Positions 9,295 through 41,922 of a stretch of DNA of 64,000 nucleotides are shown here, one piece after another. The position numbers and the translations under genes are program-made. Position 1 is the stretch's first letter. Every line of letters begins with the position of its first letter. The stretch lies in NCBI GenBank assembly GCA_964599405.1, contig CAZRED010000001.1, forward strand, positions 149,942 to 213,941. The letters are read 5' to 3'. The notes beneath the pieces were generated by a model. The model saw nothing but the letters and a program-made list of their open reading frames with translations. It searched no databases and was not told the origin of the DNA. This stretch comes from an uncultured Candidatus Saccharibacteria bacterium. GTDB taxonomy: Bacteria; Patescibacteriota; UBA1384; 2-12-FULL-50-11.

Positions 9295-9394
9295 CAAAAA
9301 GAAAGGCCGCCCAACCGGGCGGTTTTTCTTGATAGGCCAACCAAAATGAACTAAAGTCGACTTTACTAGTCAGCGATATGAACGACTGTTACAT

Positions 9395-10170: not shown

Positions 10171-10243
10171 GCCGGTGTAGCTCAACGGTTAGAGCGAAGC
10201 ACTCATAACGCTTAGGCAGGTGGTTCAACTCCACCCATCGGCA
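10171..10243 (+). tRNA. tRNA with CAU anticodon (Met or Ile2)
   Basis: Acceptor GCCGGTG/CATCGGC, D-arm GCTC-AACGGTT-AGAGC, anticodon loop CTCATAA, T-arm GGTGG-TTCAACT-CCACC. Confidence 0.7.
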
Positions 10244-10246
10244 CGA

Positions 10247-13083: not shown

Positions 13084-13266
13084 GGGTCCGTAGCTCAGTG
13101 GCAGTAGCAATCGGCTTAACAGTCAGGCCAGGTGGGAGTGTAGCTCAGCGGTTAGAGCGCCAAGCTTATACCTTGGTGGTCCATGGTTCGAATCCATGCA
13201 CTCCCACCTGGCAGGACTGTATGTAATATATCCGATCGGTCGGAGGTTCGATCCCTCCCGGACCCA
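13084..13266 (+). tRNA. Interrupted (split) class-I tRNA gene: 5' half 13084-13114 and 3' half 13232-13266, separated by a 117-nt insert in the anticodon loop
   Basis: Acceptor GGGTCCG (13084-90) pairs 7/7 with CGGACCC (13259-65). D-arm GCTC-AGTGGCAG-TAGC. Anticodon stem ATCGG (13110-14) pairs 5/5 with CCGAT (13232-36). Variable CGGTC. T-arm GGAGG-TTCGATC-CCTCC. The insert 13115-13231 contains a whole tRNA. Confidence 0.45.
13134..13206 (+). tRNA. tRNA-Ile with UAU anticodon, nested inside the split tRNA
   Basis: Acceptor GGGAGTG/CACTCCC, D-arm GCTC-AGCGGTT-AGAGC, anticodon arm CCAAG-CTTATAC-CTTGG (anticodon TAT), T-arm CATGG-TTCGAAT-CCATG, discriminator A. Confidence 0.75.
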
Positions 13267-26718: not shown

Positions 26719-26784
26719 TTGTAATAATTCCTGACAATTACCGGACTTCAAAAGACTTGTAATTAACGTAACAAAATAGTTACT

Positions 26785-27516
26785 ATGGTTATGAACCAAC
26801 AAAAAATACTAATGAAAAACATCACATTTGTTGTACTACTCATCGTGACCGTCGTGGCTTTTGTGCTTATTGCGACAGTTAGTAATCTGGTAGCAACCAC
26901 TGTCCCGGGTTTTCCCAACACTAGCTCCACTTCTGATTTTACCCAGACGATTAACCCCGGCACGTTGACAGTGGATATCGTCGACGGCAGTTACGTGGCA
27001 GTTGGTAGCCCGGCCGTAGCGATGAGCGCGGCAACGTTCGGTTTTACCTGTCAGACCACCACTGGCACCTTCGGAACCGGCACCCAGCAAATTTATGTTA
27101 AAAACCCCGACGCTTCCGACACCGGCTGGTCAACTACATTGGCCGCTTCCGCCCCCACCGCTTTTTGGGACAGTGCCGGTACTGATATGGACTTTAACGA
27201 CCCAACAACTGCTGGCTGTACTGATGGTGCCGACGCCGATAGTTTGAAAGGCCAAATGACGGTTGATCCTTCGGTCGGTACATTGGCCGTTGGGCAGTGC
27301 TTAAGCTGTGTGGTCACCAACGTCACCAAAGGATCGCTGGCGGCATTTAACCAAGCCACTCTCGATAGCATCACTATCTTAAGCGGCGCTGCAGGGTCGG
27401 ATGATATCGGCGACTGGAAATTAACCGGTGTATCGATTAGCCAAAAGATCCCGGGCGAACAGCCAGCGGCCAGCGACTACACCATTCCTCTGACACTTTC
27501 GATTGTGGCCATCTAA
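26785..27516 (+). CDS. Small secreted protein with a C-terminal WxL-like module (paralog A)
   Basis: N-terminal TM/signal, then a roughly 170-aa module shared with 27503-28228 and with the C-terminus of the 1914-aa protein. Trp-x-Leu motifs GDWKLTGVS and GWSTTL. Confidence 0.6.
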   Translation: MVMNQQKILMKNITFVVLLIVTVVAFVLIATVSNLVATTVPGFPNTSSTSDFTQTINPGTLTVDIVDGSYVAVGSPAVAMSAATFGFTCQTTTGTFGTGTQQIYVKNPDASDTGWSTTLAASAPTAFWDSAGTDMDFNDPTTAGCTDGADADSLKGQMTVDPSVGTLAVGQCLSCVVTNVTKGSLAAFNQATLDSITILSGAAGSDDIGDWKLTGVSISQKIPGEQPAASDYTIPLTLSIVAI

Positions 27517-28210
27517 AGTTTGGGGGATTATCAAAAACAATACATTCCTCCTCGTCATCATCTCCATTGTCGTGCTGTCGATACCGTTTATTGTTAATGC
27601 CTTAATTACCAACGAAGCCCCACGATTACCAAACACCGCCGACGTTAACTTCACCCATACCATCAACCCCGGCACGTTGACGGTGGATGTTGTGGATGCT
27701 AGTTATGTCGTCGTCGGCAGTCCATCGGTGGCAATAAGCGCCTCAACCTTTGGTTTTACCTGTCAGAGTGCAACTGGGCTTTTTGGTACGGCCACCCAGC
27801 AAATCTACGTCAGAAATCCCGACGCGGCCGATAACGGTTGGGTAACGAGTTTGGCCGCTTCCGTCCCCACCGCTTTTTGGGACAGTGCCGGGACCGATTT
27901 AGACTTCAACGATCCGACGACTGCTGGCTGTACTGACGGCGCTGATACCGATACCTTGAAGGGTCAGATGTCGGTTAACCCAACCGTGGGGACATTGGCC
28001 ATCGGGCAGTGCGCCAGCTGTACTACTACCAACGTCACTAAGGGCTCCTCATCGGCCTACAACGAAGGGACGGTAGACAGCATTACCATTTTGAGCGGCG
28101 CCGCGGGGTCAGATGACATCGGCGACTGGAAATTAACCGGTGTGTCTGTTAGTCAAACTATTCCCGCCGAACAGCCAGCGGCCAGTGATTACAATATCAA
28201 CCTAACTCTT
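26940..28210 (+). repeat. Tandem gene duplication (two roughly 560-bp near-identical coding repeats)
   Basis: 26940-27500 and 27650-28210 encode near-identical modules (TINPGTLTVD...LTLSIVA). Confidence 0.7.
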
Positions 28211-28228
28211 AGTATTGTTGCCAGCTAA
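27503..28228 (+). CDS. Small secreted protein with a C-terminal WxL-like module (paralog B, tandem duplicate)
   Basis: About 80% identical to paralog A over the module. 14-nt overlap with the upstream gene. Confidence 0.6.
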   Translation: MWPSKVWGIIKNNTFLLVIISIVVLSIPFIVNALITNEAPRLPNTADVNFTHTINPGTLTVDVVDASYVVVGSPSVAISASTFGFTCQSATGLFGTATQQIYVRNPDAADNGWVTSLAASVPTAFWDSAGTDLDFNDPTTAGCTDGADTDTLKGQMSVNPTVGTLAIGQCASCTTTNVTKGSSSAYNEGTVDSITILSGAAGSDDIGDWKLTGVSVSQTIPAEQPAASDYNINLTLSIVAS

Positions 28229-28269
28229 CAATAATTAGAGAATAATAATTATATAAAACAGAGGGGATT

Positions 28270-29271
28270 ATGAAAAAACTACATCTAAAAAAACTCTTAT
28301 TGGCAACCAACCTAATGACTGTGCTGTCGTTATTGTCGCCCAACTTTGCCCAGGCAATTGAGTATGGTGGCGTTGGTGGAAAACCGGCCAATCCGATTGC
28401 CGGCAACTCTCGAACCGAGTCAATATTTATCCACACCCTTGAGCCGGGAGCAACCCAAGAAGACGGGGTGCTGGTGGTAAATAATAGCCCCGAGACTAAA
28501 ACCCTGTTGGTCTATGCAGCCGACTCCACTCCTTCCACCGATGGCGCTTTCGCCTGTAAGCAACTAACCGAAGAGAAGACCGACGTCGGTGCTTGGATTA
28601 CCTTAAAAAAGTCAGAGGTAACACTGGAATCCGGTACCAAAGAAACCGTTCCCTTCACCATTCGCACTCCTCTAACCGCCAGCGTTGGCGAACATAACGG
28701 CTGTATCCTGATTCAGGAAAAGAAAGCCGCCGTTGAAGGCCAAACCGGCGCGGCCATATCGATGCGGACCGGTCTGCGCGTCGCTATTACTATTCCTGGA
28801 GATATCCTTAGAAAACTGGAAATTGGCGCCCTGACAGTGGCACCAACAGACGCTGGATTTTCCCTTACCCCCACAGTTAAAAACATTGGTAACGTCTCAA
28901 TTGACGCAAACGTTCGGGTAATAACACGCAATTTCATTGGGATGACGCATTTCACGAACGGCGGAGAGTTTCCGATTCTCCGAGGCGATACCTCACAGTG
29001 GAATTTCGATTTGAAAAGACCGTTTTGGGGCGGTTTTTACCGTTCCACCCCCGGCGTTGAGTACGACGAAAATCCAGAAGCGGGCGTTGGACTAAAAAGC
29101 GGCAAGGCGCTGACTAATTTAACTGGAGCCACCGTTTGGTTCTTTAGTTTCCCAACGCTACCGGCCTTACTAATCGAAATCTTGGTACTACTGTTTATTT
29201 TCCTTGGCTTACCGTTGATCATTCGCCAGATCCGCAAAAATCGCTCAGTGCCTTCAGTGCCGCTAGCTTAG
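28270..29271 (+). CDS. Signal-peptide protein with a C-terminal TM anchor and short basic tail (DUF916/CscA-like architecture)
   Basis: 333 aa. Lipobox-less signal peptide. C-terminal helix FPTLPALLIEILVLLFIFLGLPLII is followed by RQIRKNR. Confidence 0.45.
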   Translation: MKKLHLKKLLLATNLMTVLSLLSPNFAQAIEYGGVGGKPANPIAGNSRTESIFIHTLEPGATQEDGVLVVNNSPETKTLLVYAADSTPSTDGAFACKQLTEEKTDVGAWITLKKSEVTLESGTKETVPFTIRTPLTASVGEHNGCILIQEKKAAVEGQTGAAISMRTGLRVAITIPGDILRKLEIGALTVAPTDAGFSLTPTVKNIGNVSIDANVRVITRNFIGMTHFTNGGEFPILRGDTSQWNFDLKRPFWGGFYRSTPGVEYDENPEAGVGLKSGKALTNLTGATVWFFSFPTLPALLIEILVLLFIFLGLPLIIRQIRKNRSVPSVPLA

Positions 29272-29308
29272 GCCAGCTTGTGCTGGTGGTGGGGCTTTTG
29301 GATAAAGG

Positions 29309-32300
29309 ATGACTAAGCTCCAAATACAACTCCTGCTTGTGATTGGTCTATTGGCGTTGATTGTCAGTGGTTCCTTGGCGTTACGTAAACCGCCCTCAGT
29401 AACTCCGCCCGAAGCTACCTACCGCTACCGCCCACTATCAGAGCTGAAGCTCAATACCACGAATCGGGACAAGTATTTCGTTGGCCAGCACGAAGTGGTT
29501 CCGACGACGGAGCCAATCACGGCGGCTGTGCCACCACTGGCGCACCAAGCTCGGCTCTCTTTGAACAGCGCTCACCCCGGTCTACCAAATACTGGTGCCG
29601 GCGATTTTGATACCTCGATTAAAGCCACTGGCACGGGTTCGATTGCCGAAGCGGTACCGAAAAGCTCCCAGGCCAAAGCGGGTCTGTATCAGCTGAAAGT
29701 AACCGACGGGGTCACTGGGCAGGTAGTTTCTGACCAGACCGTTGCCTGGGGCGTATTAGTTTTTAACTCCGATTACGCCGCCTATCCAATCAACACCAAA
29801 GCCAGACTAGCGATGGCGGTTTTGGACGACCGTGGCAAGATGATCTGTGACGCCGAGCTGACGCTGGCGATCACTGAGCCCAACGGCCGAACTATTACAT
29901 TAAGCACGGCTAATAACCAAATTCTCGTTAATGAGGCCTGTTTTGTCTACGGATTGACCGAAGAGCCAGACTACGTGGCCGAATATTTACCAACCCAAGC
30001 TGGTAACTATCAGGTTGCCTTAACCGCTCGGATCGGTAACGGCGTTAGAGTGCTACACGATCAATTCTCCGTGGTCGAAAACGCCCCGTTCTATCTGCAA
30101 AGGGTTGGTGCTTCCCGAACCTATCCGGCCGCTAGCTATCCCTACACCTTTAACTTTCAACCCACCCAAAGCGGTCGTTACCAATTAACCGAAAACGTGC
30201 CGGGCAGTTTCGAAATACTCGACCTGACGATTGACGGCAACCCCTGCCCGACGGAAAGCTTACTGAACGCCGGAGCTTGCAAGATTGAGGTCTCTGAGGA
30301 CGGCAATGAGAAGCAATTAATCTGGCGGGTCGACGCCCGAGCCAATCGTGATATAAAGATCGCCTATACATTTAAGGGGCCTAGTATTTCGCCGTATTTA
30401 TTCCGGCTTGGACCGGCCGAAATCACCTCACCCGACGACTCAATTTGGACGGAGACACGTTCTTGGCTAATTGCCTCCGATGCCGCTTGCCAATCGAACG
30501 GCACTGGCGGCGGCAACTCCAACGCATCTGGCTCTTGGCAGACCTGCGGTGGGACGACCCCGCAGGCCGCTGACTCAATTACCATTCTGAGCGGCGACAC
30601 CATTACTATGAACGCCGCCTTGAGCGTCACCAGCATTGTTATCAACAACGGCGGCATTTTTACCAACAACGCCAGCCCCTTCACCTTAACGCTCACCGGT
30701 ACCACTGGCACCCTCTTCACCTTGGGCGCAACCGGTACCTTCACGCCCGGCACTTCGATTAGCGTCACGATGAACCCAAATGCTTCAATTACCACTACCT
30801 CCGGTACCATTACTTTTTTTGACTTAAACTTTACGCCGACAATCTCTGCCAGCAACAAAACCTATACGATGGGTTCCGGCGCTCTGACCATTAACGGCAA
30901 CTGGGCTATTACCGGTACGGCCGCGAGTAACGCCTTAACCTTAACGGTTAATATGAGTGCCAACGTGACGGTGGCTTCGACAAAAACCACGACGATTGGC
31001 CCGGCGTCGTTAACTAACAGAGCCACTTTGGACGTACAGCCCTCACTGGCCAGCTACAACCTAACGACCGGTACCCTGGCTATCACCGCCCTAGGTACGC
31101 TAAACGCCGCCAATGCCACCTCGGCGATTACGGTTGCCAACAGCTACAGCAATAGCGGCATTTTCACCGCCGGTTCTAGCACGGTTAGCTTCACCGCTAC
31201 TGCCACTGGTAAAACTTTGAGCGGTACACTATCCGGCGCTAACGGTAAATTCTTCAACGTCATTTTCAACGGCGTCGGCGGTGCCTGGGCATTCGGTGCT
31301 GCCGTCGAAGTAGCTAACGACTTTACCGTTACAAATGGGGCCGTCACTGCTAGTAACAATAATCTCTCCGTCACTCGTGACTTTACACTGGCTTATACCG
31401 CCGGTGTTTCTTACGTGGCTGGATCGTCAACCGTTACCGTCGCCAGACACTTCAATGACCCTGGCGTCAAATACGTTTCTAACACTTCCGAGCTGGCTCT
31501 GGACGGCACGGGCACTTTAACCACCGCTACAACTGCTTCCCTTTACGATGTATCGCTTGGCCAATCCGGCAACACAACAACACTGGCAATGGCCGGAGCG
31601 ATCGACAACTTTAACTACTACGCTAGCGACACAGATCATTTCCGGGTCCTGCTCTTCGACGGGAGTGTTGTCAAATACAAAAGCGCCGAGATAACCCCGC
31701 CCGGCACCGGTGTCAGAAGCTATACTCCGCCATCCCCTGTCCCCTACAAAGCTGGCTGGAGTATCGGTATCTATACCGTCGGTAATGGCGTCATTCCCTA
31801 CACCGGTAGCGGCGGCACACACTACTACCAAGCCAATAACTCTGGCCAACCAAACGAGGAAGCTACGATTTCCTGGCAAGGAACAACAGTCCGAACCTAT
31901 TCGATTAACGGCGAGGTCAACGGCGTCCGGGTAATCGGCAATGACGCTATCAGCCGGCCTTCGCTCGACTCATTCACTAATACCTCCCTGAAAGACACCA
32001 ATAACAACGCTACGGGGGTGGCGGAAGGATTATTAACTGTGACCAACGGCGCTACCTTGAACGGCGGTACGGTTACCGGCACTGATACCGGACTATTTCT
32101 ACCGTGTAGCACAACTTGTTCCGGCCACCTGGTCTTTAACTCACCGACCACCTTGAGCGGCTCCGGCGACAACCGGGTAGTTTACTCAACCGGCAACTCA
32201 ATAACCTATACCGTTACTGGGGGAACCTACGGCAGTTGGAATATTGCAATGGAGACAACCACCCTGTCCGATACGCCGATAACGTTCGAGCTTGGGGGAA

Positions 32301-35053
32301 ATATTATCACCGACGGGTTTGTCGCCCTTCAAGGGTCGCCCCTGGGTGGGAGCAATAGCTTCAACACCGCCGGTTTCAATATGACCGCACTGCGTTTTGA
32401 CGCTGGCAGCGAAAACCAGACCGGTAGTTGGGTCGTTAATCTTGGCGCCTCAACAATTACCCTGGACTCGACTAGCGACTCCTTTGGCGTAGCCAGCAAC
32501 GGCGGCTCCCATACCTTCAACCTCTCTACTTCCTCTGTCTCCACGACTGGGGATATCCGGTTTATTAACGGTACCGGTACAGTCGCCGCGTCTGGCAGTA
32601 CTTCCACGATTACGATGACACCAGCCGCTTCGACCACCCGGACTTTCACCACTAACGCCCAAACGATTGATAACTTTGTCGTTAACGGCGGTAACGGTGC
32701 CGCCACTGTCAACCTGGACGGCAATTTAATTGCCTCTGACAACTTAACGATTACCGCTGGTACTTTGGACGTTACGGCAACGCCGTACAGCGTCACAATC
32801 GGCGGCAACTACTCTAACTCCGGCAGCTTTACTCCCCGGTTGGGTACTGTGACTTTTAATGCTACCGACGCGGGTAATACTCTGGCGGGCACGATGACCG
32901 GTGCGTCAGCCTTTTATAATCTCGTTTTCGACGGCGTTGCTGGCGGCTGGAGCTTTAGCGCCGCGGTGACGGCAACGAACGACTTTACCGTTACCAACGG
33001 GGACGTTACCGCCAATAACAATAACTTGACTGTTACCAGGGACTTTACGCTAACTAACGTGGTGGGCGTTTCCTACACGGCCGGCTCCTCCACCATCACC
33101 GTTAGCCGCGACTACAATAACCCCGGCGACCGGTTTGTTCGTGGCACATCATTAGTTATCCTTGACGGCACCGGCAACGTTAATACCACTGGCGGTAAAT
33201 TTAATAACCTTTCTCTGGCTTACACCTCACAAGTCTCAACCTTCAATACCACCAACTTCGCGGTTTACGGCGTTCTCACCTTTAACGGCGGTACCGCCAA
33301 CGGGAGTGTTGACGGTTACGTTTCGCTGGAGCGATCTGCTAGCGCTACCCCAATTGTGTTCGCATCAGCCACCACCCTCTCCGGCACTAGTAGGACGCTT
33401 TTTCATAACAACAACGCCAATAGCCTGACTACCACCATCGCTGGTGGTAACTACGGGACGTGGAATATTATTTTGTTTACTACCCTTGGGCCTGCCACCA
33501 GTAGTATCTACCAGTTAGCCGGTAATATTACTAACACTGGTTACGTTACCCTCCAGGCCGTTGGGGGATCGACGGGCAACGTTTTTAACACCCAAAACTT
33601 CAACATTACATCGCTACGGTTTGACCTCGGCACCCAGTCCCGAACCGGACCGTGGACTGTCAATTTTGGGTCTTCGACGCTGACCCTTTCTGATACTGCT
33701 GATTCGTTTGGCGTTGCTAGTAACGGCGGCTCTCATACCTTCAACCTTTCAACCGCCGCCATCAACACCGTTGGGAACGTGCTGTTTGCCAACGGCACCG
33801 GCACCGTGTCCGTGAGTCAGGGCACCTCGACCGTGACTTGGGCGCACCCAACTGGTACCAAAACTTACGCCCCCAACAGCCAATCTCTGCACAATCTCAC
33901 GCTCAACAGCGCCGCTGGTACCCTTCAACCCAATGGTGCCGTTATTGCTACCGGCAACTTTATTATCACCGCCGGCAGCTACGACACCGTTGCTGGCCAA
34001 GACTACGCCTTAACGATCGGCGGCAACTACACCAACTCCGGCACATTTAATGCGCAGGGTGGAACGGTTACCCTAAACGGCTCCGCTACCCAAACGCTTT
34101 CTGGCACGATGGTCGGCGGTAGCGCATTCAATAACTTAACGATTACCAATAATTCTGGCACATCGGCTAGCGACTGTGAGCGAACAAGTTTTGTCCCATC
34201 AGTGGACTTTAATGCCGCTGCTTGGACAAGCGGTAACTACACCATCACTACGGCCAATGTTCGGGTCGAGTACAACTCCGGCTCTACCTACGCCTTCACC
34301 AACATCAATTGGAACGGTCAGACGATTGGGACACAGATTTACTTCCGCAACTCGGTCGCCAGCGACACCTGGCTGTTGGATGTTTCGGGAACGCAGACAG
34401 CTGTCTCCTACGTTAACGTCTCCCGGTCTAACGCCGCTAGTGGCCTTCAGATTGTTGCTAGCGACGGTACCAACACTGACTGCAACAACAATAGTAACTG
34501 GCTTTTCGTTTCTGGTGCCTTATCGACCGATATCGTTAACGCTGGCGGCACTCCAATTGATTCACCATCTATCGCCATGGGTGCAGCCACATTCTCCCTT
34601 TTATATCAAACAGTTAGCGGTATCTTTGGCGCCACTGATGAAAAAGTCAGAGTTAGTAACACCACCGTTAACCCCCAATGGAGCTTGACGATTGCCGCCA
34701 GTAGCGGTCCGACTGGGCTCTGGTCGGCTGGGACACCGAAGTATGACTTTAACGACCCAACTGGGAGTGCAGGAGACGGCGGCGATGGCGACGCTTACGG
34801 GGGACAGCTGACAATGGATGTGACTGGTGGAACCCTTGGTGGAACCTGCTCGACGACCGGAATAACTAAAGGATCATCTGCTGGTTTTTCTGAAGGAGTG
34901 GTCAACTCAATCACCCTGCTCACGGCCAGTGGCACGGCCGACGTTAGTTGCTATTGGGATTTAACCGGCGTGGACGTACTTCAAACCCTACCTTCCGAGC
35001 AAGCAACTAGCAGCTACTCCATCAATATGACTCTCACTATTACCGCCAATTAA
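29309..35053 (+). CDS. Giant (1914 aa) repeat-rich surface protein ending in the WxL-like module
   Basis: Signal/TM at the N-terminus. Long Thr/Gly/Asn-rich beta-solenoid-like repeats with two roughly 400-aa internal duplications. The last roughly 170 aa are homologous to the two small paralogs (YWDLTGVDV, QWSLTIAAS). Confidence 0.7.
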   Translation: MTKLQIQLLLVIGLLALIVSGSLALRKPPSVTPPEATYRYRPLSELKLNTTNRDKYFVGQHEVVPTTEPITAAVPPLAHQARLSLNSAHPGLPNTGAGDFDTSIKATGTGSIAEAVPKSSQAKAGLYQLKVTDGVTGQVVSDQTVAWGVLVFNSDYAAYPINTKARLAMAVLDDRGKMICDAELTLAITEPNGRTITLSTANNQILVNEACFVYGLTEEPDYVAEYLPTQAGNYQVALTARIGNGVRVLHDQFSVVENAPFYLQRVGASRTYPAASYPYTFNFQPTQSGRYQLTENVPGSFEILDLTIDGNPCPTESLLNAGACKIEVSEDGNEKQLIWRVDARANRDIKIAYTFKGPSISPYLFRLGPAEITSPDDSIWTETRSWLIASDAACQSNGTGGGNSNASGSWQTCGGTTPQAADSITILSGDTITMNAALSVTSIVINNGGIFTNNASPFTLTLTGTTGTLFTLGATGTFTPGTSISVTMNPNASITTTSGTITFFDLNFTPTISASNKTYTMGSGALTINGNWAITGTAASNALTLTVNMSANVTVASTKTTTIGPASLTNRATLDVQPSLASYNLTTGTLAITALGTLNAANATSAITVANSYSNSGIFTAGSSTVSFTATATGKTLSGTLSGANGKFFNVIFNGVGGAWAFGAAVEVANDFTVTNGAVTASNNNLSVTRDFTLAYTAGVSYVAGSSTVTVARHFNDPGVKYVSNTSELALDGTGTLTTATTASLYDVSLGQSGNTTTLAMAGAIDNFNYYASDTDHFRVLLFDGSVVKYKSAEITPPGTGVRSYTPPSPVPYKAGWSIGIYTVGNGVIPYTGSGGTHYYQANNSGQPNEEATISWQGTTVRTYSINGEVNGVRVIGNDAISRPSLDSFTNTSLKDTNNNATGVAEGLLTVTNGATLNGGTVTGTDTGLFLPCSTTCSGHLVFNSPTTLSGSGDNRVVYSTGNSITYTVTGGTYGSWNIAMETTTLSDTPITFELGGNIITDGFVALQGSPLGGSNSFNTAGFNMTALRFDAGSENQTGSWVVNLGASTITLDSTSDSFGVASNGGSHTFNLSTSSVSTTGDIRFINGTGTVAASGSTSTITMTPAASTTRTFTTNAQTIDNFVVNGGNGAATVNLDGNLIASDNLTITAGTLDVTATPYSVTIGGNYSNSGSFTPRLGTVTFNATDAGNTLAGTMTGASAFYNLVFDGVAGGWSFSAAVTATNDFTVTNGDVTANNNNLTVTRDFTLTNVVGVSYTAGSSTITVSRDYNNPGDRFVRGTSLVILDGTGNVNTTGGKFNNLSLAYTSQVSTFNTTNFAVYGVLTFNGGTANGSVDGYVSLERSASATPIVFASATTLSGTSRTLFHNNNANSLTTTIAGGNYGTWNIILFTTLGPATSSIYQLAGNITNTGYVTLQAVGGSTGNVFNTQNFNITSLRFDLGTQSRTGPWTVNFGSSTLTLSDTADSFGVASNGGSHTFNLSTAAINTVGNVLFANGTGTVSVSQGTSTVTWAHPTGTKTYAPNSQSLHNLTLNSAAGTLQPNGAVIATGNFIITAGSYDTVAGQDYALTIGGNYTNSGTFNAQGGTVTLNGSATQTLSGTMVGGSAFNNLTITNNSGTSASDCERTSFVPSVDFNAAAWTSGNYTITTANVRVEYNSGSTYAFTNINWNGQTIGTQIYFRNSVASDTWLLDVSGTQTAVSYVNVSRSNAASGLQIVASDGTNTDCNNNSNWLFVSGALSTDIVNAGGTPIDSPSIAMGAATFSLLYQTVSGIFGATDEKVRVSNTTVNPQWSLTIAASSGPTGLWSAGTPKYDFNDPTGSAGDGGDGDAYGGQLTMDVTGGTLGGTCSTTGITKGSSAGFSEGVVNSITLLTASGTADVSCYWDLTGVDVLQTLPSEQATSSYSINMTLTITAN

Positions 35054-35081
35054 CAGACTTTCCTCTCCATTAATTTACGTA

Positions 35082-36089
35082 GTGAGTTTGTTTCGTTATC
35101 CTAATATTGGTAGGGGTGTAATCGATTCCATGAGAACTGGCCGTTTTAAACTGTTTGCTTTGATACTAGGTCTGACCATAGTAGCGTTTGGGAGTGGCAT
35201 AAAAACCGTCGCCGCCCAAGACAGTCCCAGCGTCTTATATGTCCCCTTAATCGGCCTAACATCGGTACCAGATCCGTTGGCACTACCGGATGGGGCGGGT
35301 GATGTAACGTATCATTACGCAGTTAAAAACTTTCTTAGCGAGGCGGCTTTAACTAACGTCCAAGTCGTCGACGACAACTGTGCCTCCGTTAAATTTATCG
35401 AAGGCGACGATAATAACGACTCCGAGCTTGATTACGACGAAACCTGGCGCTACACCTGTACCACTAAAGTTTCCGTCACCACTCAAAGTACGGCCACGGC
35501 CACCGGTACTGCCAATAATTTAACCGCGACTCACAAAGCCTACGTTACCGTTATTGTTGGTCTAAGTGACCCAGCCCCACTTGTTAGTATTGTTAACATC
35601 ACCAAAGTTGCCTATCCATTGTCCCTACCGGCCGAAGGAGGCGACATTACCTTTATCTATAAGGTTAACAATCCAGGCGTCGTGTCATTAAGTGATGTCA
35701 CTGTCGTTGATGATAGGTGTGGGGCGATGTCCGGCAAACTCGGGGACAGGAACGGCAACGGCCTGCTGGATACCAATGAGGTTTGGATTTACACCTGTAC
35801 AATGACTCTGAGAGAGACTACTACCAATACCGCCACCGTTACCGCTTTTGCTAATGGATTAATGGCCACGAATAACTTTTCCCTGACCGTCAAGGTTGAC
35901 ACCCTAGTCGATCAGGCGCTCATCAAACTTCCCGATACCGGCAAAGATGCGCTATTAAAAATTATGGTTTGGGAAATCTTATTAGGTATATTGGTAACTC
36001 TACTCACCATATCTATTGTTTTAAACCGAAAGAATCGACTGCGAAGCGTTGAAATTACACAAAATATCTTAGACGGGGGAAGAAAGTAA
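35082..36089 (+). CDS. LPXTG-anchored surface protein with two tandem roughly 110-aa repeats
   Basis: C-terminal LPDTG, hydrophobic helix, then NRKNRLRS. Repeats contain VVDDNC...WRYTCT and VVDDRC...WIYTCT. The likely start is the internal Met at 35130. Confidence 0.65.
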   Translation: MSLFRYPNIGRGVIDSMRTGRFKLFALILGLTIVAFGSGIKTVAAQDSPSVLYVPLIGLTSVPDPLALPDGAGDVTYHYAVKNFLSEAALTNVQVVDDNCASVKFIEGDDNNDSELDYDETWRYTCTTKVSVTTQSTATATGTANNLTATHKAYVTVIVGLSDPAPLVSIVNITKVAYPLSLPAEGGDITFIYKVNNPGVVSLSDVTVVDDRCGAMSGKLGDRNGNGLLDTNEVWIYTCTMTLRETTTNTATVTAFANGLMATNNFSLTVKVDTLVDQALIKLPDTGKDALLKIMVWEILLGILVTLLTISIVLNRKNRLRSVEITQNILDGGRK

Positions 36090-36132
36090 CCATGAATTGT
36101 TTAGAGGACTAAATGAATAGTTTGTTACACAA

Positions 36133-37044
36133 ATGAAAAGACCAAAATTAGTATTAATAATTATTGTGCTGGTTGTTGTAGCCGCGTTGGGGGCCGGAGT
36201 TTATTTCAAGCTGATTCCCCGTCTGTTCCAAAAACCCGTCGCCACAGTAGTCGATCAGCTATTCGGTTGGAAGTTTCCAATTACCAAATTCCCACTGGTT
36301 GGGCCGGATGGCCAACTGGCGTACTCCAACATCCGTGATCCTGGCGGTATACCACAAGGGCTACCAGTTCGCCTGAAAGTTCCCGTTATCGGCGTCGATT
36401 CAGCTATTGAAGACGCGCTGATTACCCCGGACGGAAGAATGGACGTGCCAATCGGCTCGGTTAATGTTGCCTGGTTTTCTCTTGGCCCTCATCCCGGCGA
36501 CGAAGGAAGCGCGGTGATCGGTGGGCATTTTGGGATTAGAGACGGGGTGCCGTTCGTCTTCTACAACTTAGACAAGCTAAAGGTTGGCGACAAGGTATAT
36601 GTGGTCGACGACAAAGACCAGACATTGGCTTTCCAGGTCAGGGAAATTAAATTATTCGATCGAAACGCTGATGCAACGACGGTTTTTACCTCCGATGACG
36701 GGTTGGCTCATCTTAACCTGATTACTTGCGAAGGCATTTGGAACCAAGTTGACGGTTCGTATCCCGAGCGGCGAGTAGTGTTTACCGATGCCATACCATC
36801 AGAAGGGGCAGTAACCGTTACTCCTAAGTCTCCAACGGCGGCGATTCCCACGCCAAACCCAACACCAACTCCGACACCAACTCCGACAACAGAAAATACA
36901 GTATCTACAGCTGCCTTGCTTCAGAGCGTGAATCGGGCAATAAAAAGTGCGGCCAGTACGCCAATCGACGCACTAATCACTTTCACCCTACTAGCTTCGA
37001 TAGCGTATATGGCCACCAAAATCGTCAGGCTCCGCAGAGCATAG
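36133..37044 (+). CDS. Sortase family transpeptidase
   Basis: N-terminal TM. Catalytic His in GGHFG, TLxTC-type motif LNLITCEG, Arg in RRVVFTD. Pro/Thr-rich linker and C-terminal TM. Confidence 0.75.
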   Translation: MKRPKLVLIIIVLVVVAALGAGVYFKLIPRLFQKPVATVVDQLFGWKFPITKFPLVGPDGQLAYSNIRDPGGIPQGLPVRLKVPVIGVDSAIEDALITPDGRMDVPIGSVNVAWFSLGPHPGDEGSAVIGGHFGIRDGVPFVFYNLDKLKVGDKVYVVDDKDQTLAFQVREIKLFDRNADATTVFTSDDGLAHLNLITCEGIWNQVDGSYPERRVVFTDAIPSEGAVTVTPKSPTAAIPTPNPTPTPTPTPTTENTVSTAALLQSVNRAIKSAASTPIDALITFTLLASIAYMATKIVRLRRA

Positions 37045-38189: not shown

Positions 38190-39470
38190 TTAGCGAGTAT
38201 AAACTTGAGCGGCGGCGGTGAAGGCAGATACTTCGCTGGCCATTTTGCCGGGGAATGTTTCTACCTTCAACTTGTCGGGCGCAGTCATTTGCAGCAACGC
38301 AACTCCCTTAACCTGATTGCCAGCCTGTAATTTCGGGTTCGCAATGACATGGTCGAGCATCCAGCTCGCACCACTGTCGCCATCGATGTAGCCGCCCTCG
38401 ACAAGCTCGTACTTAACGAGCCCTGTCTCCATGCTAACGACGGCGGGATCTGGGGCATTGCCCTTGACCATAAATTGACTGGCCCCGGTCTTCCAGTTGC
38501 CGACCGAAAATTTAATGGCGGTTGGGTCTAAATAGTCGTAGGCAATCGCCAAATGGCCATCCCAATAACGCGAAAGGGCCTGGCCTTGGATAGCTGGCGG
38601 TCCGTTAAATCCATTCGTTCCTTCTTGGAACCAGTTGCCAACGAGCTTGCCAGCAATATCGTAATTGATTTTTCCTGTCCGCGGTTCAACAACGCGCGCT
38701 GCTTTGGCCAAGAGCTGTGCCCGGAGCCCTACTTCAAAATATTTGAACATATCATCAAGGTAAAAACGGGATTCCTGGTCCTTATAGGAAGCGGTATTGG
38801 CGACAAAATCTGGTTCTTTTTCAAAATTCCAGACTGCAAAATCAACGGTCTGGCCGCCAATCCGACCGACTAACTGACCGGCCTTGATTGGAATGCGAAC
38901 GGACTTACTCTCGAAGCCTTCAAGTTTGCCGACAACCGCGGTCAGCTCTGGTGAGAGCGAGGTCAAAAGGTCGTAATAACTATAAAACGTGCACGTATGC
39001 TCAAACTGCATCTGATACTCGTCAGTGACGTGATTCGGGTCTTGATTGTCACCGACGGCCTGACCGCGATGGGAAATACTAACGATAAAGCCGTCGGCGA
39101 TAGCGTAAACAGGATATTTATCGCGCTCTGACCTAAAAATGATGGGAGAATAGTAGCCGTGATCGGTTGGCATCACGTGCGCACCGACCATAATACCGTA
39201 GGGCTGAATAATGCCGATATCGGCGACATCCATCGGGGCGTGCGTAAACACGACGGTACCGCTTCCCTGACATTTCCCTTGACTCATGTTCCGGCTAAAT
39301 GGATTATCTTTCGCGTCTCCGGTGGTGGTTGTCTCTTGGGTCGTGGGGTTGTTGGTTACCGTCAGTTTACGAGTACTCCTGTACACAAAATAGCCGGCCG
39401 TCAGAAGAATAACGCCACTCACGACCACCACAATCAGCCAACGCTTCATTTTGTGAGCGCTAGCGAACAA
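38190..39470 (-). CDS. N-terminally anchored extracellular protein, unknown function
   Basis: TM helix at residues 10-30. No recognisable motif. Confidence 0.4.
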   Translation of the reverse strand: MFASAHKMKRWLIVVVVSGVILLTAGYFVYRSTRKLTVTNNPTTQETTTTGDAKDNPFSRNMSQGKCQGSGTVVFTHAPMDVADIGIIQPYGIMVGAHVMPTDHGYYSPIIFRSERDKYPVYAIADGFIVSISHRGQAVGDNQDPNHVTDEYQMQFEHTCTFYSYYDLLTSLSPELTAVVGKLEGFESKSVRIPIKAGQLVGRIGGQTVDFAVWNFEKEPDFVANTASYKDQESRFYLDDMFKYFEVGLRAQLLAKAARVVEPRTGKINYDIAGKLVGNWFQEGTNGFNGPPAIQGQALSRYWDGHLAIAYDYLDPTAIKFSVGNWKTGASQFMVKGNAPDPAVVSMETGLVKYELVEGGYIDGDSGASWMLDHVIANPKLQAGNQVKGVALLQMTAPDKLKVETFPGKMASEVSAFTAAAQVYTR

Positions 39471-39583: not shown

Positions 39584-39850
39584 ATGGGATGGATTGTCAC
39601 TATTATAGTGGGAGCGTTAATTGGTTGGATAGCCAGTAAGATGATGAGTACGGACGAGCAACAGGGGGCGTTGGCCAATATTGGGATTGGAATTGCCGGC
39701 TCGTTGCTGGGTAGCTGGTTGTTTGGCAGTGTCCTGGGAATTGGTAGCGCCGGTGCCGCCGGAGCGTTTAGCTTCTGGGGAGTTGTTTGGGGAATCGTTG
39801 GCGCAGTGGTCTTAATTGCCATATTGAAGGCCTTTAAGGTGTTGAAGTAA
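39584..39850 (+). CDS. GlsB/YeaQ/YmgE family transglycosylase-associated membrane protein
   Basis: [20 protein letters not shown]...[13 protein letters not shown] glycine-zipper pattern of PF04226. Confidence 0.7.
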
Positions 39851-40266
39851 TGCCGGTGGAAGTGGAGAAAGAGGTAACGACCACCAGCGAAGGGCCAGTG
39901 GCCGACCAAGTCAGCCAAACTGCTACCGTTTCGCAAGTGCCAACGGGAGCAGAAGTTCAAGACGCCCGTTCGGATCGGGGCAATGCCTGGATTTGGTATA
40001 TCGTGGGAATTATCGATCTGATACTACTGCTACGATTGGTATTTTTGCTGTTGGGCGCTCGAGCTGTCGGCTTTGCCGATTTTCTCTACAGTATTTCTAG
40101 CCCGTTTGTAGCGCCGTTTCGGGGAATCTTTCCCAACCCGCAAGTAGAAGGGTCGTATTTTGATATGGCCTCGTTTGCTGCGATTATCGTCTACGCCCTG
40201 TTAGGCTGGGTTGTGGCTCGGCTAATTGATCTGGCCACTCGGCCAGGGAACAGCAGCAAAATCTAA
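39850..40266 (+). CDS. YggT family membrane protein
   Basis: FLYSISSPFVAPFRGIFP...DMASFAAIIVYALLG matches the YggT (PF02325) consensus. Confidence 0.6.
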   Translation: MPVEVEKEVTTTSEGPVADQVSQTATVSQVPTGAEVQDARSDRGNAWIWYIVGIIDLILLLRLVFLLLGARAVGFADFLYSISSPFVAPFRGIFPNPQVEGSYFDMASFAAIIVYALLGWVVARLIDLATRPGNSSKI

Positions 40267-40311: not shown

Positions 40312-41253
40312 ATGAGGGTTCTGAACATGACTAAGCCTAGTAAGTATTCAACAATCAATGTATTGATCGCTTCCTTGGTGGTTGGACTCGCTGGTGTAGT
40401 TGTAGCATTCGCGGCCGGCCCCACAACCGTCAATCTTGGCACAGCCGAACCTTTTGCCATCCTAGCTGGGACTCCTGATATTACTGACTCTCCGACATCG
40501 ACTATTACTGGAAACGTTGGGTTGTACCCAGGCCCTGCTTCCGGTATCGGGCTACTTTGTTCACAAGTAACCGGGACAATCTATGGGCGCGATGGCACGG
40601 GTGACCCGTGTTTTACGGTCAACGATCCGTTACTCCTGGCGGCCAAGAACGACTTAACTGCCGCGTTTACCGATGCAGCCGGGCGAACACCGGTTATTAT
40701 TGTACCAACCGAGCTCGGCGGAACGACTAAATTTGCAGGTGTTTACGCCTCTGACGACACTACGTTTCAGATTTCGGCACCAATCCCCCTCATCCTCGAT
40801 GGACAAGGCGATCCCAATGCCGTTTTCATCTTCGAAATGAATGCGGAGGGAACCGGACTGACTGTCGGACCGGGTAGTGTGGTACAGCTCACGGGCCAGG
40901 CCCAGGCCTGCAACGTCTTTTGGCGAGTAGACACAGCTACTATCGACAGCACCGCGGTATTCAAGGGTACTATCCTGGCTCTGACCTCGATTACGGTGGC
41001 TAACGGCGCCAACATTGAAGGAAGACTATTGGCTCGTAACGGTAGCGTCACCTTAATTAACGACACCATCACCAAACCGACTTGTGTAGCAGCGGCTACA
41101 GTCACTCCGCCGGCAACTACGCCATCTCTCCCCGACACTGGTCTAACTCCCGATGGCAGCAACAGTGCCGTGTGGAGCGTTATTATCCCAGTTTGGGCCA
41201 TTGCCGGTCTGTTCTCGTTCTGGTTAGTTCGACGCAAACAGCGGACGATTTAG
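40312..41253 (+). CDS. LPXTG-anchored ice-binding-like (DUF3494) beta-helix protein
   Basis: AEPFAILAGTPDIT...GNVGLYPG and CNVFWRVDTATIDSTAVFKGTILALTSITVANGANIEGRLLARNGSVTL are DUF3494 hallmarks. C-terminal LPDTG, TM, then RRKQRTI. Confidence 0.7.
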   Translation: MRVLNMTKPSKYSTINVLIASLVVGLAGVVVAFAAGPTTVNLGTAEPFAILAGTPDITDSPTSTITGNVGLYPGPASGIGLLCSQVTGTIYGRDGTGDPCFTVNDPLLLAAKNDLTAAFTDAAGRTPVIIVPTELGGTTKFAGVYASDDTTFQISAPIPLILDGQGDPNAVFIFEMNAEGTGLTVGPGSVVQLTGQAQACNVFWRVDTATIDSTAVFKGTILALTSITVANGANIEGRLLARNGSVTLINDTITKPTCVAAATVTPPATTPSLPDTGLTPDGSNSAVWSVIIPVWAIAGLFSFWLVRRKQRTI

Positions 41254-41301
41254 TCTAGGCATTAAATAAGAGGCGCTAATATATTTACCTGGAGGGCCGG
41301 T

Positions 41302-41922
41302 ATGGGTCTATCACCAGCTCCATTAAAACGAGTGCTATTAGCTATCAAGCTGGTGGGGGTGTCAGCGGGAATTGTCGTCTCTTTGGCAATTTACTCTGCC
41401 AAAAATACCCCCGACTATGAAAACGTCTTAGTGCCCGTTGAGAAAATCGTCGTTCCTTCGGTGGTAGCGCCGGCTCTTTTGGCTTCTCCGTTGCGACTGA
41501 AGATTCCTAAGATTGAGGTTAACGCCGTCATCGAATACGTCGGTCTGAACACTGATGGAGCAATGGGAGTGCCGAAAGATCCCGCCGATGTTGCTTGGTT
41601 CAATCTCGGGGCACGACCCGGTGAGGTTGGTAGCGCGGTAATCGCCGGGCACTACGGGTGGAGAAATAATATTCCAGCGGTATTTGACGATCTCCATAAA
41701 TTGCGTCCTGGTGATACCTTAGTAATCGAGGACGACAGAGGAGCAAGCACCACCTTCGTGGTGCGGGAAAGCCGCCGGTACGACCCGACAGCGGACGCCT
41801 CGGAGATATTTTTGCAAAGCGACGGGATAGCTCACCTTAACCTAGTTACCTGCGAAGGGGTGTGGAACGTCGCTACTGATAGTTACTCTCGGCGGCTGGT
41901 GGTATTTACCGACAAACAGTAG
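41302..41922 (+). CDS. Sortase family transpeptidase (second copy)
   Basis: Paralog of 36133-37044 (IAGHYGW, NLVTCEG, RRLVVFTD). N-terminal TM. Confidence 0.75.
   Translation: MGLSPAPLKRVLLAIKLVGVSAGIVVSLAIYSAKNTPDYENVLVPVEKIVVPSVVAPALLASPLRLKIPKIEVNAVIEYVGLNTDGAMGVPKDPADVAWFNLGARPGEVGSAVIAGHYGWRNNIPAVFDDLHKLRPGDTLVIEDDRGASTTFVVRESRRYDPTADASEIFLQSDGIAHLNLVTCEGVWNVATDSYSRRLVVFTDKQ

What the first reader, a model, noticed from the sequence alone, without database searches (positions are those of the whole stretch)
40312..41922. Ice-binding-like (DUF3494) beta-helix protein with an LPXTG signal and its own adjacent sortase
The DUF3494 domain is clear (AEPFAILAG..., CNVFWRVDTATIDSTAVFKGTILALTSITVANGANIEGRLLARNGSVTL). 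The protein ends LPDTG, TM, then RRKQRTI, and a sortase gene follows 48 nt downstream. A second sortase-substrate pair lies at 35082-37044. Paired sortase-substrate cassettes point to dedicated (housekeeping-independent) anchoring. The function of DUF3494 outside ice binding, possibly adhesion, is open.
Basis: partly seen in the sequence, partly recalled or inferred. Interest (0 to 1): 0.55.

Follow-up and report, generated by a model that had tools for sequence, protein, structure and literature searches.

The report
Wall-anchored DUF3494 protein with its sortase

Summary
ORF 40312-41253 (probable true start 40327) encodes a signal peptide, a DUF3494/Ice_binding beta-helix (Pfam E 3e-45; predicted fold TM 0.87 to solved ice-binding proteins), a 16-residue linker, LPDTG, a membrane helix and RRKQRTI. 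A sortase gene with its own GGAGG ribosome site follows 48 nt downstream.

The pairing is not chance. In 25 of 26 non-redundant close homologues with enough flanking DNA, a same-strand sortase lies within -60 to +200 nt, while the other neighbours mostly differ. The one exception lacks a sorting motif. Three searches started from the sortase again found DUF3494 genes just upstream. All 42 linked sortases score best as class F, and the window's two fall below NCBI's curated cutoff. The DUF3494 domain is more conserved (mean 69% identity) than its sortase (52%).

In Parcubacteria-type loci the DUF3494 head is fused to the CLIPPER_2 stalk domains of the window's second substrate (35082-36089). 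That supports a surface-binding head displayed from the wall.

Most likely mechanism: Sec export, then cleavage at LPDT|G and covalent attachment to peptidoglycan by the co-transcribed sortase. Ice binding is neither shown nor excluded. This is a new member of a known kind, of modest interest.

The parts
40312..41253 (+). Gene for the DUF3494 (Ice_binding) LPXTG surface protein. The longest ORF starts at 40312; the probable true start is the ATG at 40327.
   Evidence: ORF list; Pfam PF11999 E 3.2e-45; P0001 (308 aa, 100% identical) starts at 40327; GAGGG at 40314-40318 lies 8 nt before 40327.
40312..40413 (+). N-terminal signal peptide (res 1-34: basic n-region, hydrophobic core, A-F-A then A cleavage-type motif).
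   Evidence: Sequence inspection. The AxA motif before the mature domain is conserved in 20 homologues (alignment A1). No signal-peptide predictor was available.
40471..41073 (+). DUF3494 right-handed beta-helix domain (res 54-254 by Pfam; structural core about 47-256) with a long flanking alpha-helix (res 105-123) and a conserved capping Cys pair C83/C100.
   Evidence: Pfam. AlphaFold2 core pLDDT about 75-95. Foldseek against PDB: the top 31 hits are all ice-binding proteins, target-normalised TM 0.87-0.88 to 3wp9 and FfIBP. The Cys pair aligns with the Cys pair of FfIBP and ColAFP. Invariant residues.
41128..41142 (+). LPDTG sortase recognition motif (res 273-277), preceded by a 16-residue T/P/A-rich linker (res 257-272).
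   Evidence: Sequence. P274 and G277 are invariant in A1. Motif spectrum in 72 non-redundant relatives: LPNTG 32, no motif 14, FPHTG 4, LPNAG 3, FPNTG 3, LPDTG 2, plus rarer variants.
41167..41250 (+). C-terminal hydrophobic membrane segment (res 286-306) and positively charged tail RRKQRTI (307-313), completing the cell-wall sorting signal.
   Evidence: Sequence. AF2 predicts a helix at 298-310. The same layout occurs in all 20 aligned homologues.
41254..41301 (+). 48-nt intergenic spacer with a GGAGG Shine-Dalgarno sequence (41291-41295) 6 nt before the sortase ATG and no terminator-like hairpin. Co-transcription is inferred.
   Evidence: Sequence. The terminator scan found nothing in the spacer and nothing above the shuffled expectation.
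41302..41922 (+). Class-F-like sortase (206 aa): N-terminal membrane helix (res about 8-34), catalytic domain res 58-204, catalytic His117 (41650-41652), Cys184 in LNLVTCEG (41851-41853) and Arg198 (41893-41895).
   Evidence: Pfam PF04203 E 7e-21. NCBIfam class_F 113.5 bits (cutoff 166), other classes 28 bits or less. H117, C184 and R198 are invariant in 31 sequences. AF2 helix 8-34. NCBI names close relatives 'class F sortase'.
35082..36089 (+). Second sortase substrate: signal peptide, two CLIPPER_2 (DUF7507, CnaA-like isopeptide-type) domains, LPDTG (res 283-287; 35928-35942), TM helix and a basic tail. The database copy starts at 35130.
   Evidence: Pfam PF24346 E 4e-8 with 2 stretches. 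Family alignment A4 has invariant K175/D210/N258 and Cys pairs. Domain meaning from PMC12617251. P0241 is 319 aa.
36133..37044 (+). Second class-F-like sortase (303 aa), 50% identical to the first in the catalytic domain, with an extra Pro/Thr-rich linker and a C-terminal membrane helix plus RLRRA tail.
   Evidence: Orthologous sortases follow CLIPPER_2 proteins in L090 and L091.
39584..40266 (+). Upstream neighbours Transgly_assoc (39584-39850) and YggT (39850-40266) membrane proteins. They are occasionally, not generally, co-located with the cassette.
   Evidence: Pfam. The same pair lies upstream in L087 and YggT lies upstream in L090. YggT is within 300 nt upstream in only 1 of 44 non-redundant loci.

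Best explanation
This is a two-gene surface-display cassette of a Patescibacteria (CPR) bacterium. The first gene encodes a secreted single-domain DUF3494 beta-helix protein carrying a canonical C-terminal cell-wall sorting signal. The second gene, probably co-transcribed, encodes a membrane-anchored class-F-like cysteine transpeptidase.

Proposed sequence of events:
1. Sec export and signal-peptide cleavage after A-F-A (inferred).
2. Retention in the membrane by the C-terminal helix and RRKQRTI tail (inferred from the standard sorting-signal layout).
3. Cleavage between Thr and Gly of LPDTG by the Cys184/His117/Arg198 active site, followed by transfer of the protein to a peptidoglycan precursor amine. 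This links the beta-helix covalently to the wall (inferred from sortase family knowledge, not tested).
4. The beta-helix, held only about 16 residues from the wall and stabilised by conserved disulfides, acts as a binding surface for a conserved ligand on a host cell or substratum (inferred).

Shown here: domain identities, fold, motif layout, catalytic residues, phylum-wide conservation of the gene pair, and co-divergence of the two genes.
For: - Domain and fold.
- Sorting-signal layout is conserved in homologues.
- Sortase identity, catalytic triad and class.
- Linkage: 5 of 5 Patescibacteria genome or long-contig loci, and 25 of 26 non-redundant close homologues. The single exception lacks a sorting motif.
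- Reciprocal test: 3 of 3 srt1-type sortases from other CPR lineages have PF11999 genes immediately upstream.
- Orthology: all 25 linked sortases are closer to this sortase than to the window's other sortase.
- Co-divergence: the identities of the two genes correlate (Spearman 0.65, p 4e-4).
- Operon signals: a strong SD sequence and no terminator between the genes.
- Binding-head reading: in L087-L089 and L091, DUF3494 is fused N-terminal to CLIPPER_2 stalk domains followed by LPxTG (L091's copy stops just after FPNTG). Tandem paralogues instead end in a sequence resembling a peptidoglycan-binding domain (not HMM-tested). So the module is repeatedly hung on the wall by different anchors.
- Literature: CLIPPER_2 is a stalk domain of fibrillar adhesins and pilins (PMC12617251). 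Ice-binding-like folds are proposed adhesive domains (PMC9210967, bioRxiv 10.1101/2023.03.06.531300). More than half of CPR genomes carry a sortase family (PMC6744442).
Against: - No biochemical step was tested.
- The sortase scores below NCBI's curated class F cutoff (113.5 against 166), so its specificity could differ from known enzymes.
- Both window substrates share LPDTG, so exclusivity of each sortase for its neighbour is not shown.
- The 16-residue linker is short for a wall-spanning adhesin, so the domain may sit in or at the wall rather than project from it.
- The DUF3494 domain is unusually conserved (62-80% identity) for a host-specific adhesin, which argues for a generic ligand or a structural role.
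- The ligand is unknown. The closest solved relatives are all true ice binders.
Confidence: 0.75

Rival explanations
1. It is a genuine ice-binding protein displayed on the cell surface (an ice adhesin or cell-attached antifreeze). Sortase anchoring lets the cell hold on to ice or shape ice around itself.
For: All significant sequence and structure matches in PDB are experimentally characterised ice-binding proteins (33-37% identity, target TM 0.87). The capping-region Cys pair of FfIBP and ColAFP is conserved. Positions aligned to three matches to FfIBP's published T-A/G-x-T/N pattern that I located in the printed FfIBP sequence remain Thr/Ser-rich (T-S-I-T and G-S-V-T; T-G-I-T is retained in some homologues) (motif definition as quoted in bioRxiv 10.1101/2023.03.06.531300). 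An anchored DUF3494 'ice adhesin' has been proposed for Shewanella frigidimarina (PDB 6bg8; own knowledge).
Against: It scores 118.8 bits against a cutoff of 400 for NCBI's ice-binding equivalog model. The family has thousands of members across Patescibacteria metagenomes, including contigs labelled as Hainich groundwater wells (that the habitat does not freeze is my own knowledge). Ice-binding sites in this family are not recognisable from sequence. DUF3494-like folds also occur in non-ice contexts (bioRxiv 10.1101/2023.03.06.531300).
Confidence: 0.12
2. The two cassettes in the window cooperate to build a covalent two-part fibre. One sortase ligates the Thr of the DUF3494 LPDTG to a lysine of the CLIPPER_2 protein, and the other sortase anchors that stalk to the wall. 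This would reproduce in trans the head-stalk fusion seen in other CPR lineages, as a minimal sortase-assembled pilus.
For: Rosetta-stone fusion: in L087-L089 and L091 a single protein carries DUF3494 plus two CLIPPER_2 domains similar to window 35082-36089 (phmmer E 1e-49 to 1e-58 in L087-L089; Pfam domains for L091), followed by LPxTG in L087-L089 and by FPNTG in L091, whose called gene stops just after the motif. The two cassettes lie close together in the window (3.3 kb apart), in L090 (8 kb) and directly adjacent in L091. There are two distinct sortase paralogues, and the second has a C-terminal TM helix as pilus sortases often do. CnaA-like isopeptide domains are the building blocks of Gram-positive pilins (PMC12617251). 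An invariant Lys82 (Y-A-V-K-N) sits in the first CLIPPER_2 domain, which lacks the usual isopeptide Lys position.
Against: Both sortases score as class F, with class C at only 22-29 bits against a cutoff of 160. No canonical YPKN pilin motif or E-box is present. 0 of 23 close DUF3494 loci with at least 3.5 kb of flank contain a CLIPPER_2 gene or a second sortase within 4 kb. The DUF3494-sortase pair is self-sufficient in most genomes sampled.
Confidence: 0.08
3. The adjacency is incidental. The sortase is the cell's general sortase and merely happens to sit next to one of many substrates.
For: Both window substrates use the same generic LPDTG motif. The only characterised class F sortase is a housekeeping enzyme (PMC13251363, PMC8225981). 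Small CPR genomes may have few sortases.
Against: Linkage holds in 25 of 26 non-redundant loci whose other neighbours mostly differ. The one unlinked close homologue has no sorting motif. The reciprocal sortase-first test was 3 of 3. The linked sortases form an orthologous set distinct from the window's second sortase and co-diverge with the substrate.
Confidence: 0.05

Closest known systems
DUF3494 / Ice_binding family (PF11999), e.g. ColAFP (3wp9), FfIBP (4nu2), EfcIBP (6eio)
   Same: Same domain by HMM and the same predicted beta-helix plus flanking alpha-helix fold. 33-37% identity. The capping Cys pair is shared with FfIBP and ColAFP.
   Different: The characterised members are soluble secreted proteins of cold-adapted organisms. 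This one carries an LPXTG sorting signal, is paired with a sortase, and belongs to a Patescibacteria-wide subfamily. It scores far below NCBI's ice-binding equivalog cutoff (118.8 against 400). Its ice binding is untested.
Class F sortases (NF033748; prototype C. acnes SrtF)
   Same: Best-scoring class for all 42 linked sortases. It has the His-Cys-Arg triad, an N-terminal membrane anchor and an LPXTG-type substrate motif. NCBI names close relatives class F.
   Different: The window enzymes score below the curated cutoff (113.5 and 101.2 against 166). They are encoded next to a specific substrate and co-inherited with it. The prototype is described as housekeeping, and the physiological roles of class F enzymes are stated to be unknown (PMC13251363).
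Sortase-substrate gene cassettes of Gram-positive bacteria (e.g. srtB-isdC, class D or E sortases next to their substrates, pilus islands)
   Same: A sortase gene lies directly next to the gene of a protein carrying a matching sorting signal. The implied logic is a dedicated enzyme for a dedicated cargo.
   Different: Different sortase class, different cargo fold, different phylum (CPR). The cargo motif is the generic LPXTG rather than a specialised motif such as NPQTN or LPXTA (comparison from own knowledge).
Fibrillar adhesins with ice-binding-like heads: choice-of-anchor A / pAdhesive_15 (PF20597, TIGR04215), and SfIBP_1 of Shewanella frigidimarina (6bg8)
   Same: A beta-solenoid head of the ice-binding fold is attached to the cell surface through exchangeable anchors. 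The CPR fusions DUF3494 + CLIPPER_2 + LPxTG have the head-stalk-anchor plan (PMC9210967; bioRxiv 10.1101/2023.03.06.531300).
   Different: The window protein has no stalk, only a 16-residue linker. It scores below the cutoffs of PF20597 (17.2 against 23.8) and TIGR04215 (17.6 against 29).

Membership tests
DUF3494 / Ice_binding (PF11999) | Match to the family HMM above Pfam's gathering score | tested here: met
   154.8 bits against 28.7, E 3.2e-45, profile positions 4-208 of 208.
DUF3494 / Ice_binding (PF11999) | Right-handed triangular beta-helix with a long alpha-helix packed alongside | tested here: met
   The AF2 model has strands from 48 to 254 and a helix at 105-123, with core pLDDT about 75-95. 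Foldseek target TM is 0.87-0.88 to 3wp9 and FfIBP, and the top 31 PDB hits are all of this fold.
Functional ice-binding proteins | Binds ice (thermal hysteresis or recrystallisation inhibition) | not testable with these tools
   Sequence only. NCBIfam IBP_CFB equivalog scores 118.8 bits against a cutoff of 400. Positions aligned to FfIBP T-A/G-x-T/N-type motifs are T-S-I-T and G-S-V-T, which is inconclusive.
Sortase substrates (cell-wall sorting signal) | C-terminal LPXTG-type motif, then a hydrophobic segment, then a positively charged tail | tested here: met
   LPDTG 273-277, hydrophobic 286-306, RRKQRTI 307-313. The layout is conserved in the 20 aligned homologues (19 with an L/F-P-x-T/A-G motif; P0097 reads PPSG).
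Sortase substrates (cell-wall sorting signal) | N-terminal secretion signal | tested here: met
   By inspection: basic n-region, hydrophobic core and an A-x-A site, conserved in alignment A1. No dedicated predictor was available.
Sortase substrates (cell-wall sorting signal) | Actual cleavage at Thr-Gly and covalent linkage to peptidoglycan | not testable with these tools
   Requires biochemistry.
Sortase superfamily (PF04203) | HMM match and the conserved His, Cys (TxxTC-like) and Arg catalytic residues | tested here: met
   E 7e-21. H117, C184 (LNLVTCEG) and R198 are invariant in 31 sequences. Foldseek matches at E <= 0.001 are led by sortases (all 50 rows shown).
Class F sortase (NF033748) | Score at or above NCBI's curated cutoff for the subfamily model | tested here: not met
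   113.5 bits (41302 gene) and 101.2 bits (36133 gene) against a cutoff of 166. Class F is still by far the best class, with others at 39 bits or less. 42 of 42 linked sortases match class F best. Hence 'class-F-like'.
Class C (pilus-polymerising) sortase | Match to the class C model; lid over the active site | tested here: not met
   22.2 and 28.6 bits against a cutoff of 160. The Foldseek ranking (class C and E on top, TM about 0.5) does not discriminate between classes because the model's loops are low-confidence.
   Class E scores 27.7 and 16.1 bits against a cutoff of 160. No class A model was reported at E <= 0.01.
Choice-of-anchor A / pAdhesive_15 | HMM match above the cutoff | tested here: not met
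   PF20597 scores 17.2 against 23.8. TIGR04215 scores 17.6 against 29. This is a related fold only.
Sortase-assembled pilus locus | Pilin with a YPKN-type lysine motif, a class C sortase, and several pilin genes in one cluster | tested here: inconclusive
   No YPKN motif. The CLIPPER_2 protein has an invariant K82 in Y-A-V-K-N. There are two sortases, but both are class-F-like. The cassettes are adjacent only in L091, and 0 of 23 close loci show co-location within 4 kb.

The most novel reading that the evidence does not exclude
In Patescibacteria, class-F-like sortases and their neighbouring substrates form a modular, covalently assembled attachment organelle. A highly conserved DUF3494 head would be joined either in cis (fusion proteins) or in trans (sortase ligation onto the CLIPPER_2 LPxTG stalk protein of the second cassette) and then fixed to the thin CPR wall. 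This would be a minimal, non-class-C sortase pilus used for epibiotic attachment.
Probability: 0.08. Interest if true: 0.7.

Novelty: new member of a known kind. Interest (0 to 1): 0.38.

Why it matters
The physiological roles and natural substrates of class F sortases are stated to be unknown (PMC13251363). A phylum-wide, co-inherited pairing with one specific cargo gives a concrete enzyme-substrate pair to test.

Patescibacteria live attached to other microbes, yet apart from type IV and Pam pili their attachment molecules are poorly known (PMC11623550; bioRxiv 10.64898/2026.03.03.709456). A strongly conserved wall-anchored beta-helix is therefore a reasonable candidate surface factor.

The result also adds a large, apparently non-psychrophilic clade with a defined cellular location to the open question of what DUF3494 domains do outside ice binding.

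None of this is surprising in kind. Public annotation already labels relatives of these genes 'ice-binding family protein' and 'class F sortase'.

Tried and rejected
1. The genome-contig scan with the single protein gave only 2 loci because the patterns were too specific. An alignment query should have been used. The metagenome scan with alignment A1 compensated.
2. Exact look-ups of the window's own proteins (P0001 and the sortase) found no contig on record, and the cluster look-up gave no names. The source organism is therefore known only as a Patescibacteria-like MAG contig of 326 kb.
3. The sortase structure prediction (pLDDT 71) and Foldseek search could not assign a class. Class C and E structures tie at TM about 0.5, and no solved class F structure stood out.
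5. The idea that upstream Transgly_assoc/YggT genes belong to the cassette was rejected: YggT lay within 300 nt upstream in 1 of 44 loci and Transgly_assoc in none, though the arrangement recurs in L087 and L090.
6. The idea that the 25.5-37 kb cluster is a WxL/Csc-type cluster got only partial support. WxLIP_PGBD hits at E 2e-7, but no WxL domain hit appears even at E 10.
7. The 2026 'Pam pilus' preprint on CPR was checked and is unrelated: it describes Ig-like pilins with donor-strand exchange and no sortase.
8. Literature searches for DUF3494 with sortase (0 papers) and for ice-binding with Patescibacteria (4 papers, none evidently on this topic by title and abstract) found no prior description.
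9. The promoter and terminator scans were at background level.
Full report
**1. Observation**

The ORF list shows a 313-aa ORF at 40312-41253 (+) and a 206-aa ORF at 41302-41922 (+), separated by 48 nt.

- The first protein matches Pfam PF11999 (Ice_binding/DUF3494) at E 3.2e-45 over nearly the whole model. The second matches PF04203 (Sortase) at E 7e-21.
- The first protein ends with LPDTG (res 273-277), an 8-residue spacer, 21 hydrophobic residues and RRKQRTI. Its N-terminus has a basic/hydrophobic/A-F-A signal-peptide layout.
- A GAGGG lies 8 nt before the second ATG (40327), and the database copy P0001 begins there. The real start is therefore probably 40327.
- The sortase has GGAGG 6 nt before its ATG, and no terminator-like hairpin lies in the spacer.
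35082-36089 carries two DUF7507 (now CLIPPER_2) domains, LPDTG, a TM helix and a basic tail. 36133-37044 is a sortase 50% identical to the first in its catalytic domain.
- No other sortase or DUF3494 gene is found in the window by BLAST.

**2. The proteins**

*DUF3494 protein.*
- Sequence search of PDB returns only DUF3494 ice-binding or antifreeze proteins. The best is 6eio at E 4e-28.
- An AlphaFold2 model built from 20 homologues has a confident core (blocks 6-25 mostly pLDDT 75-95), with strands from 48 to 254 and a long helix at 105-123.
- Foldseek places the model on ColAFP (3wp9) and FfIBP with target-normalised TM 0.87-0.88 and 33-37% identity. All 31 significant hits are ice-binding proteins.
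- The conserved Cys83/Cys100 pair aligns with the Cys pair in the capping region of FfIBP and ColAFP.
- NCBI's ice-binding equivalog model is far from satisfied (118.8 against 400 bits). The related adhesive families pAdhesive_15 and choice-of-anchor A are sub-threshold.

*Sortases.*
- Both have invariant His, Cys (LNL[VI]TCEG) and Arg residues and an N-terminal membrane helix.
- By NCBIfam they are clearly closest to class F (113.5 and 101.2 bits; other models 39 bits or less) but below the curated cutoff of 166.
- NCBI labels several close relatives 'class F sortase'.
- Structure comparison could not discriminate between classes.

**3. Source organism**

The nearest relatives of all three proteins queried (the DUF3494 protein, its sortase and the CLIPPER_2 protein) come from Patescibacteria/CPR metagenome-assembled genomes, including Saccharimonadales, Paceibacterota, Yanofskybacteria, Terrybacteria and Liptonbacteria. 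The identical proteins sit on a 326-kb NCBI contig that the tools could not name.

**4. Is the pairing meaningful?**

- Twenty close homologues share the same architecture, almost all with LPNTG, LPNAG or FPNTG.
- In five Patescibacteria loci from genomes or long contigs, a sortase follows immediately while the flanking genes are mostly different.
- A metagenome scan gave 80 further loci. After de-replication at 90% identity there were 31 close-family clusters, of which 26 had at least 650 nt of downstream sequence.
- Of those 26, 25 have a same-strand sortase within -60 to +200 nt. The only exception encodes a protein without a sorting motif.
- Every linked sortase is more similar to the 41302 sortase than to the 36133 sortase. 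All 42 examined score best as class F.
- In the reverse direction, three srt1-type sortases chosen from other CPR lineages each have one or two PF11999 genes directly upstream.
- Across the 25 pairs the DUF3494 domain is 62-80% identical to the window protein (mean 69%). The sortase catalytic domain is 46-61% identical (mean 52%).
- The substrate is the more conserved partner in 25 of 25 pairs, and the two divergences correlate (Spearman 0.65, p 4e-4).
- The pair therefore behaves as a co-inherited two-gene module. A more distant DUF3494 group (400-450 aa; some with FPHTG, FPTSS or LPRSS tails, others with no detected motif) is likewise followed, in most cases with a 4-nt overlap, by a more distant class-F-type sortase.

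**5. Function of the head domain**

- In the Parcubacteria-type loci L087-L089, and in L091, the sortase-adjacent substrate is a protein of about 600 aa. It consists of a signal peptide, DUF3494, and two CLIPPER_2 domains. In L087-L089 these are strongly similar to the window's second substrate (E 1e-49 to 1e-58) and are followed by LPxTG.
- CLIPPER_2 is a CnaA-like domain predicted to contain an intramolecular isopeptide bond. It is typical of the stalks of fibrillar adhesins and pilins (PMC12617251).
- Tandem DUF3494 paralogues in L087 and L091 end in a sequence resembling a peptidoglycan-binding domain (by eye, not HMM-tested) rather than LPxTG.
- The DUF3494 module is thus repeatedly attached to the wall by interchangeable anchors, with or without a stalk. 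That is the pattern of a surface-binding head.
- This fits published proposals that the ice-binding fold serves as an adhesive domain outside cold habitats (PMC9210967; bioRxiv 10.1101/2023.03.06.531300).
- In the window protein the linker is only 16 residues, so the head would sit at the wall surface.
- Its high conservation argues for a generic ligand rather than a fast-evolving receptor.
- Ice binding cannot be excluded from sequence. Positions aligned to FfIBP's T-A/G-x-T/N-type motifs remain Thr/Ser-rich.

**6. Relation between the two cassettes**

- The CLIPPER_2 LPxTG family is itself widespread in Patescibacteria. In L090 and L091 it is followed by an srt2-type sortase.
- L090 is syntenic with the window: CLIPPER_2 + sortase, then YggT + DUF3494 + sortase 8 kb later. 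In L091 the two cassettes are adjacent.
- Together with the fusion proteins, this allows a speculative model in which the head is ligated in trans onto the stalk.
- Against that model, 0 of 23 close DUF3494 loci carry a CLIPPER_2 gene or a second sortase within 4 kb. Both sortases are class-F-like rather than class C, and no canonical pilin motif is present. I give this reading about 8%.

**7. Comparison with the known, and novelty**

- Sortase-substrate cassettes, DUF3494 proteins and class F sortases are all known kinds.
- It is known that more than half of CPR genomes carry a sortase family (PMC6744442).
- The physiological role of class F sortases is stated to be unknown (PMC13251363; PMC8225981).
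- No paper in the searchable library mentions DUF3494 together with sortase or evidently describes this cassette in Patescibacteria. The recently described CPR Pam pili are unrelated.
- The finding is therefore a new, well-supported member of a known kind. It is useful as a candidate cognate pair for class F sortase biochemistry and as a candidate CPR surface factor, but it is not surprising in principle.

**8. Verdict**

- Observation: confirmed.
- Best explanation: a sortase-anchored DUF3494 surface module, confidence about 0.75.
- Interest: 0.38.

Noticed in passing
window 25507-37044 (+): The second sortase pair closes what looks like one cell-surface gene cluster. Its members are a PKD-domain protein (25507-26718), two paralogues of about 240 aa (26785-27516, 27503-28228), a WxLIP_PGBD/DUF916-like protein with a C-terminal TM anchor (28270-29271, PF06030 E 2e-7), a 1914-aa giant protein (29309-35053), the CLIPPER_2 LPDTG protein and the sortase. 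The layout recalls the Lactobacillus csc and Enterococcus WxL clusters (from memory), but no WxL domain is detected even at E 10.
   Followed up: partly
window 26785-27516, 27503-28228, 29309-35053 (N-terminal regions): All three proteins have an N-terminal membrane helix followed by a sortase-like motif, P-[GR]-[FL]-P-N-T-[SAG] (PGFPNTS, PRLPNTA, PGLPNTG). It lies directly after the helix in the two small paralogues and roughly 70 residues further on in the giant protein. They also share a similar C-terminal end (..DWKLTGV..P.EQPA.S.Y.I.LTL.I.A). An LPNTG-like motif near the N-terminus, next to a sortase gene, is unexplained.
   Followed up: no
L087 1973-3814; L088 1968-3782; L089 2046-3971; L091 6840-8687: In other CPR lineages the window's two separate sortase substrates occur as one fused protein (DUF3494 + 2x CLIPPER_2), followed by LPxTG in L087-L089 and by FPNTG in L091, whose called gene stops just after the motif. 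The fusion lies upstream of an srt1-type sortase, directly in L087-L089 and with two small genes between in L091.
   Followed up: partly
L091 10921-12117: The srt2-type sortase of this locus (398 aa) carries a PG_binding_1 domain. Near its own C-terminus it has LPNTG followed by a hydrophobic segment and an RRR tail, so the sortase itself appears to bear a sorting signal.
   Followed up: no
L087 585-1808; L091 5649-6824: Tandem DUF3494 paralogues upstream of the fused gene lack LPxTG. They end in a sequence that by eye resembles a peptidoglycan-binding domain (..LTRAALAEFQA.VGISPALGNFGPITR.YL..; not HMM-tested), which would be an alternative, non-covalent wall anchor for the same head domain.
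   Followed up: no
L052, L058, L060-L064, L072, L083: A more distant DUF3494 group (about 360-490 aa; some with FPHTG, FPTSS or LPRSS tails, others with no detected motif) is followed by a more distant class-F-type sortase (phmmer about 64-87 bits to the window sortase). In most of these loci its start overlaps the substrate's stop by 4 nt. The organisms are unknown.
   Followed up: partly
window 13134-13208 (+): A tRNA-Ile with anticodon TAT lies near two tRNA-Met(CAT) genes (9224-9295, 10171-10244). UAU-anticodon tRNA-Ile is uncommon in bacteria (own knowledge).
   Followed up: no
window 38190-39470 (-): A 426-aa ORF with an N-terminal membrane helix has no Pfam match. It sits between the two sortase cassettes on the opposite strand.
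   Followed up: no
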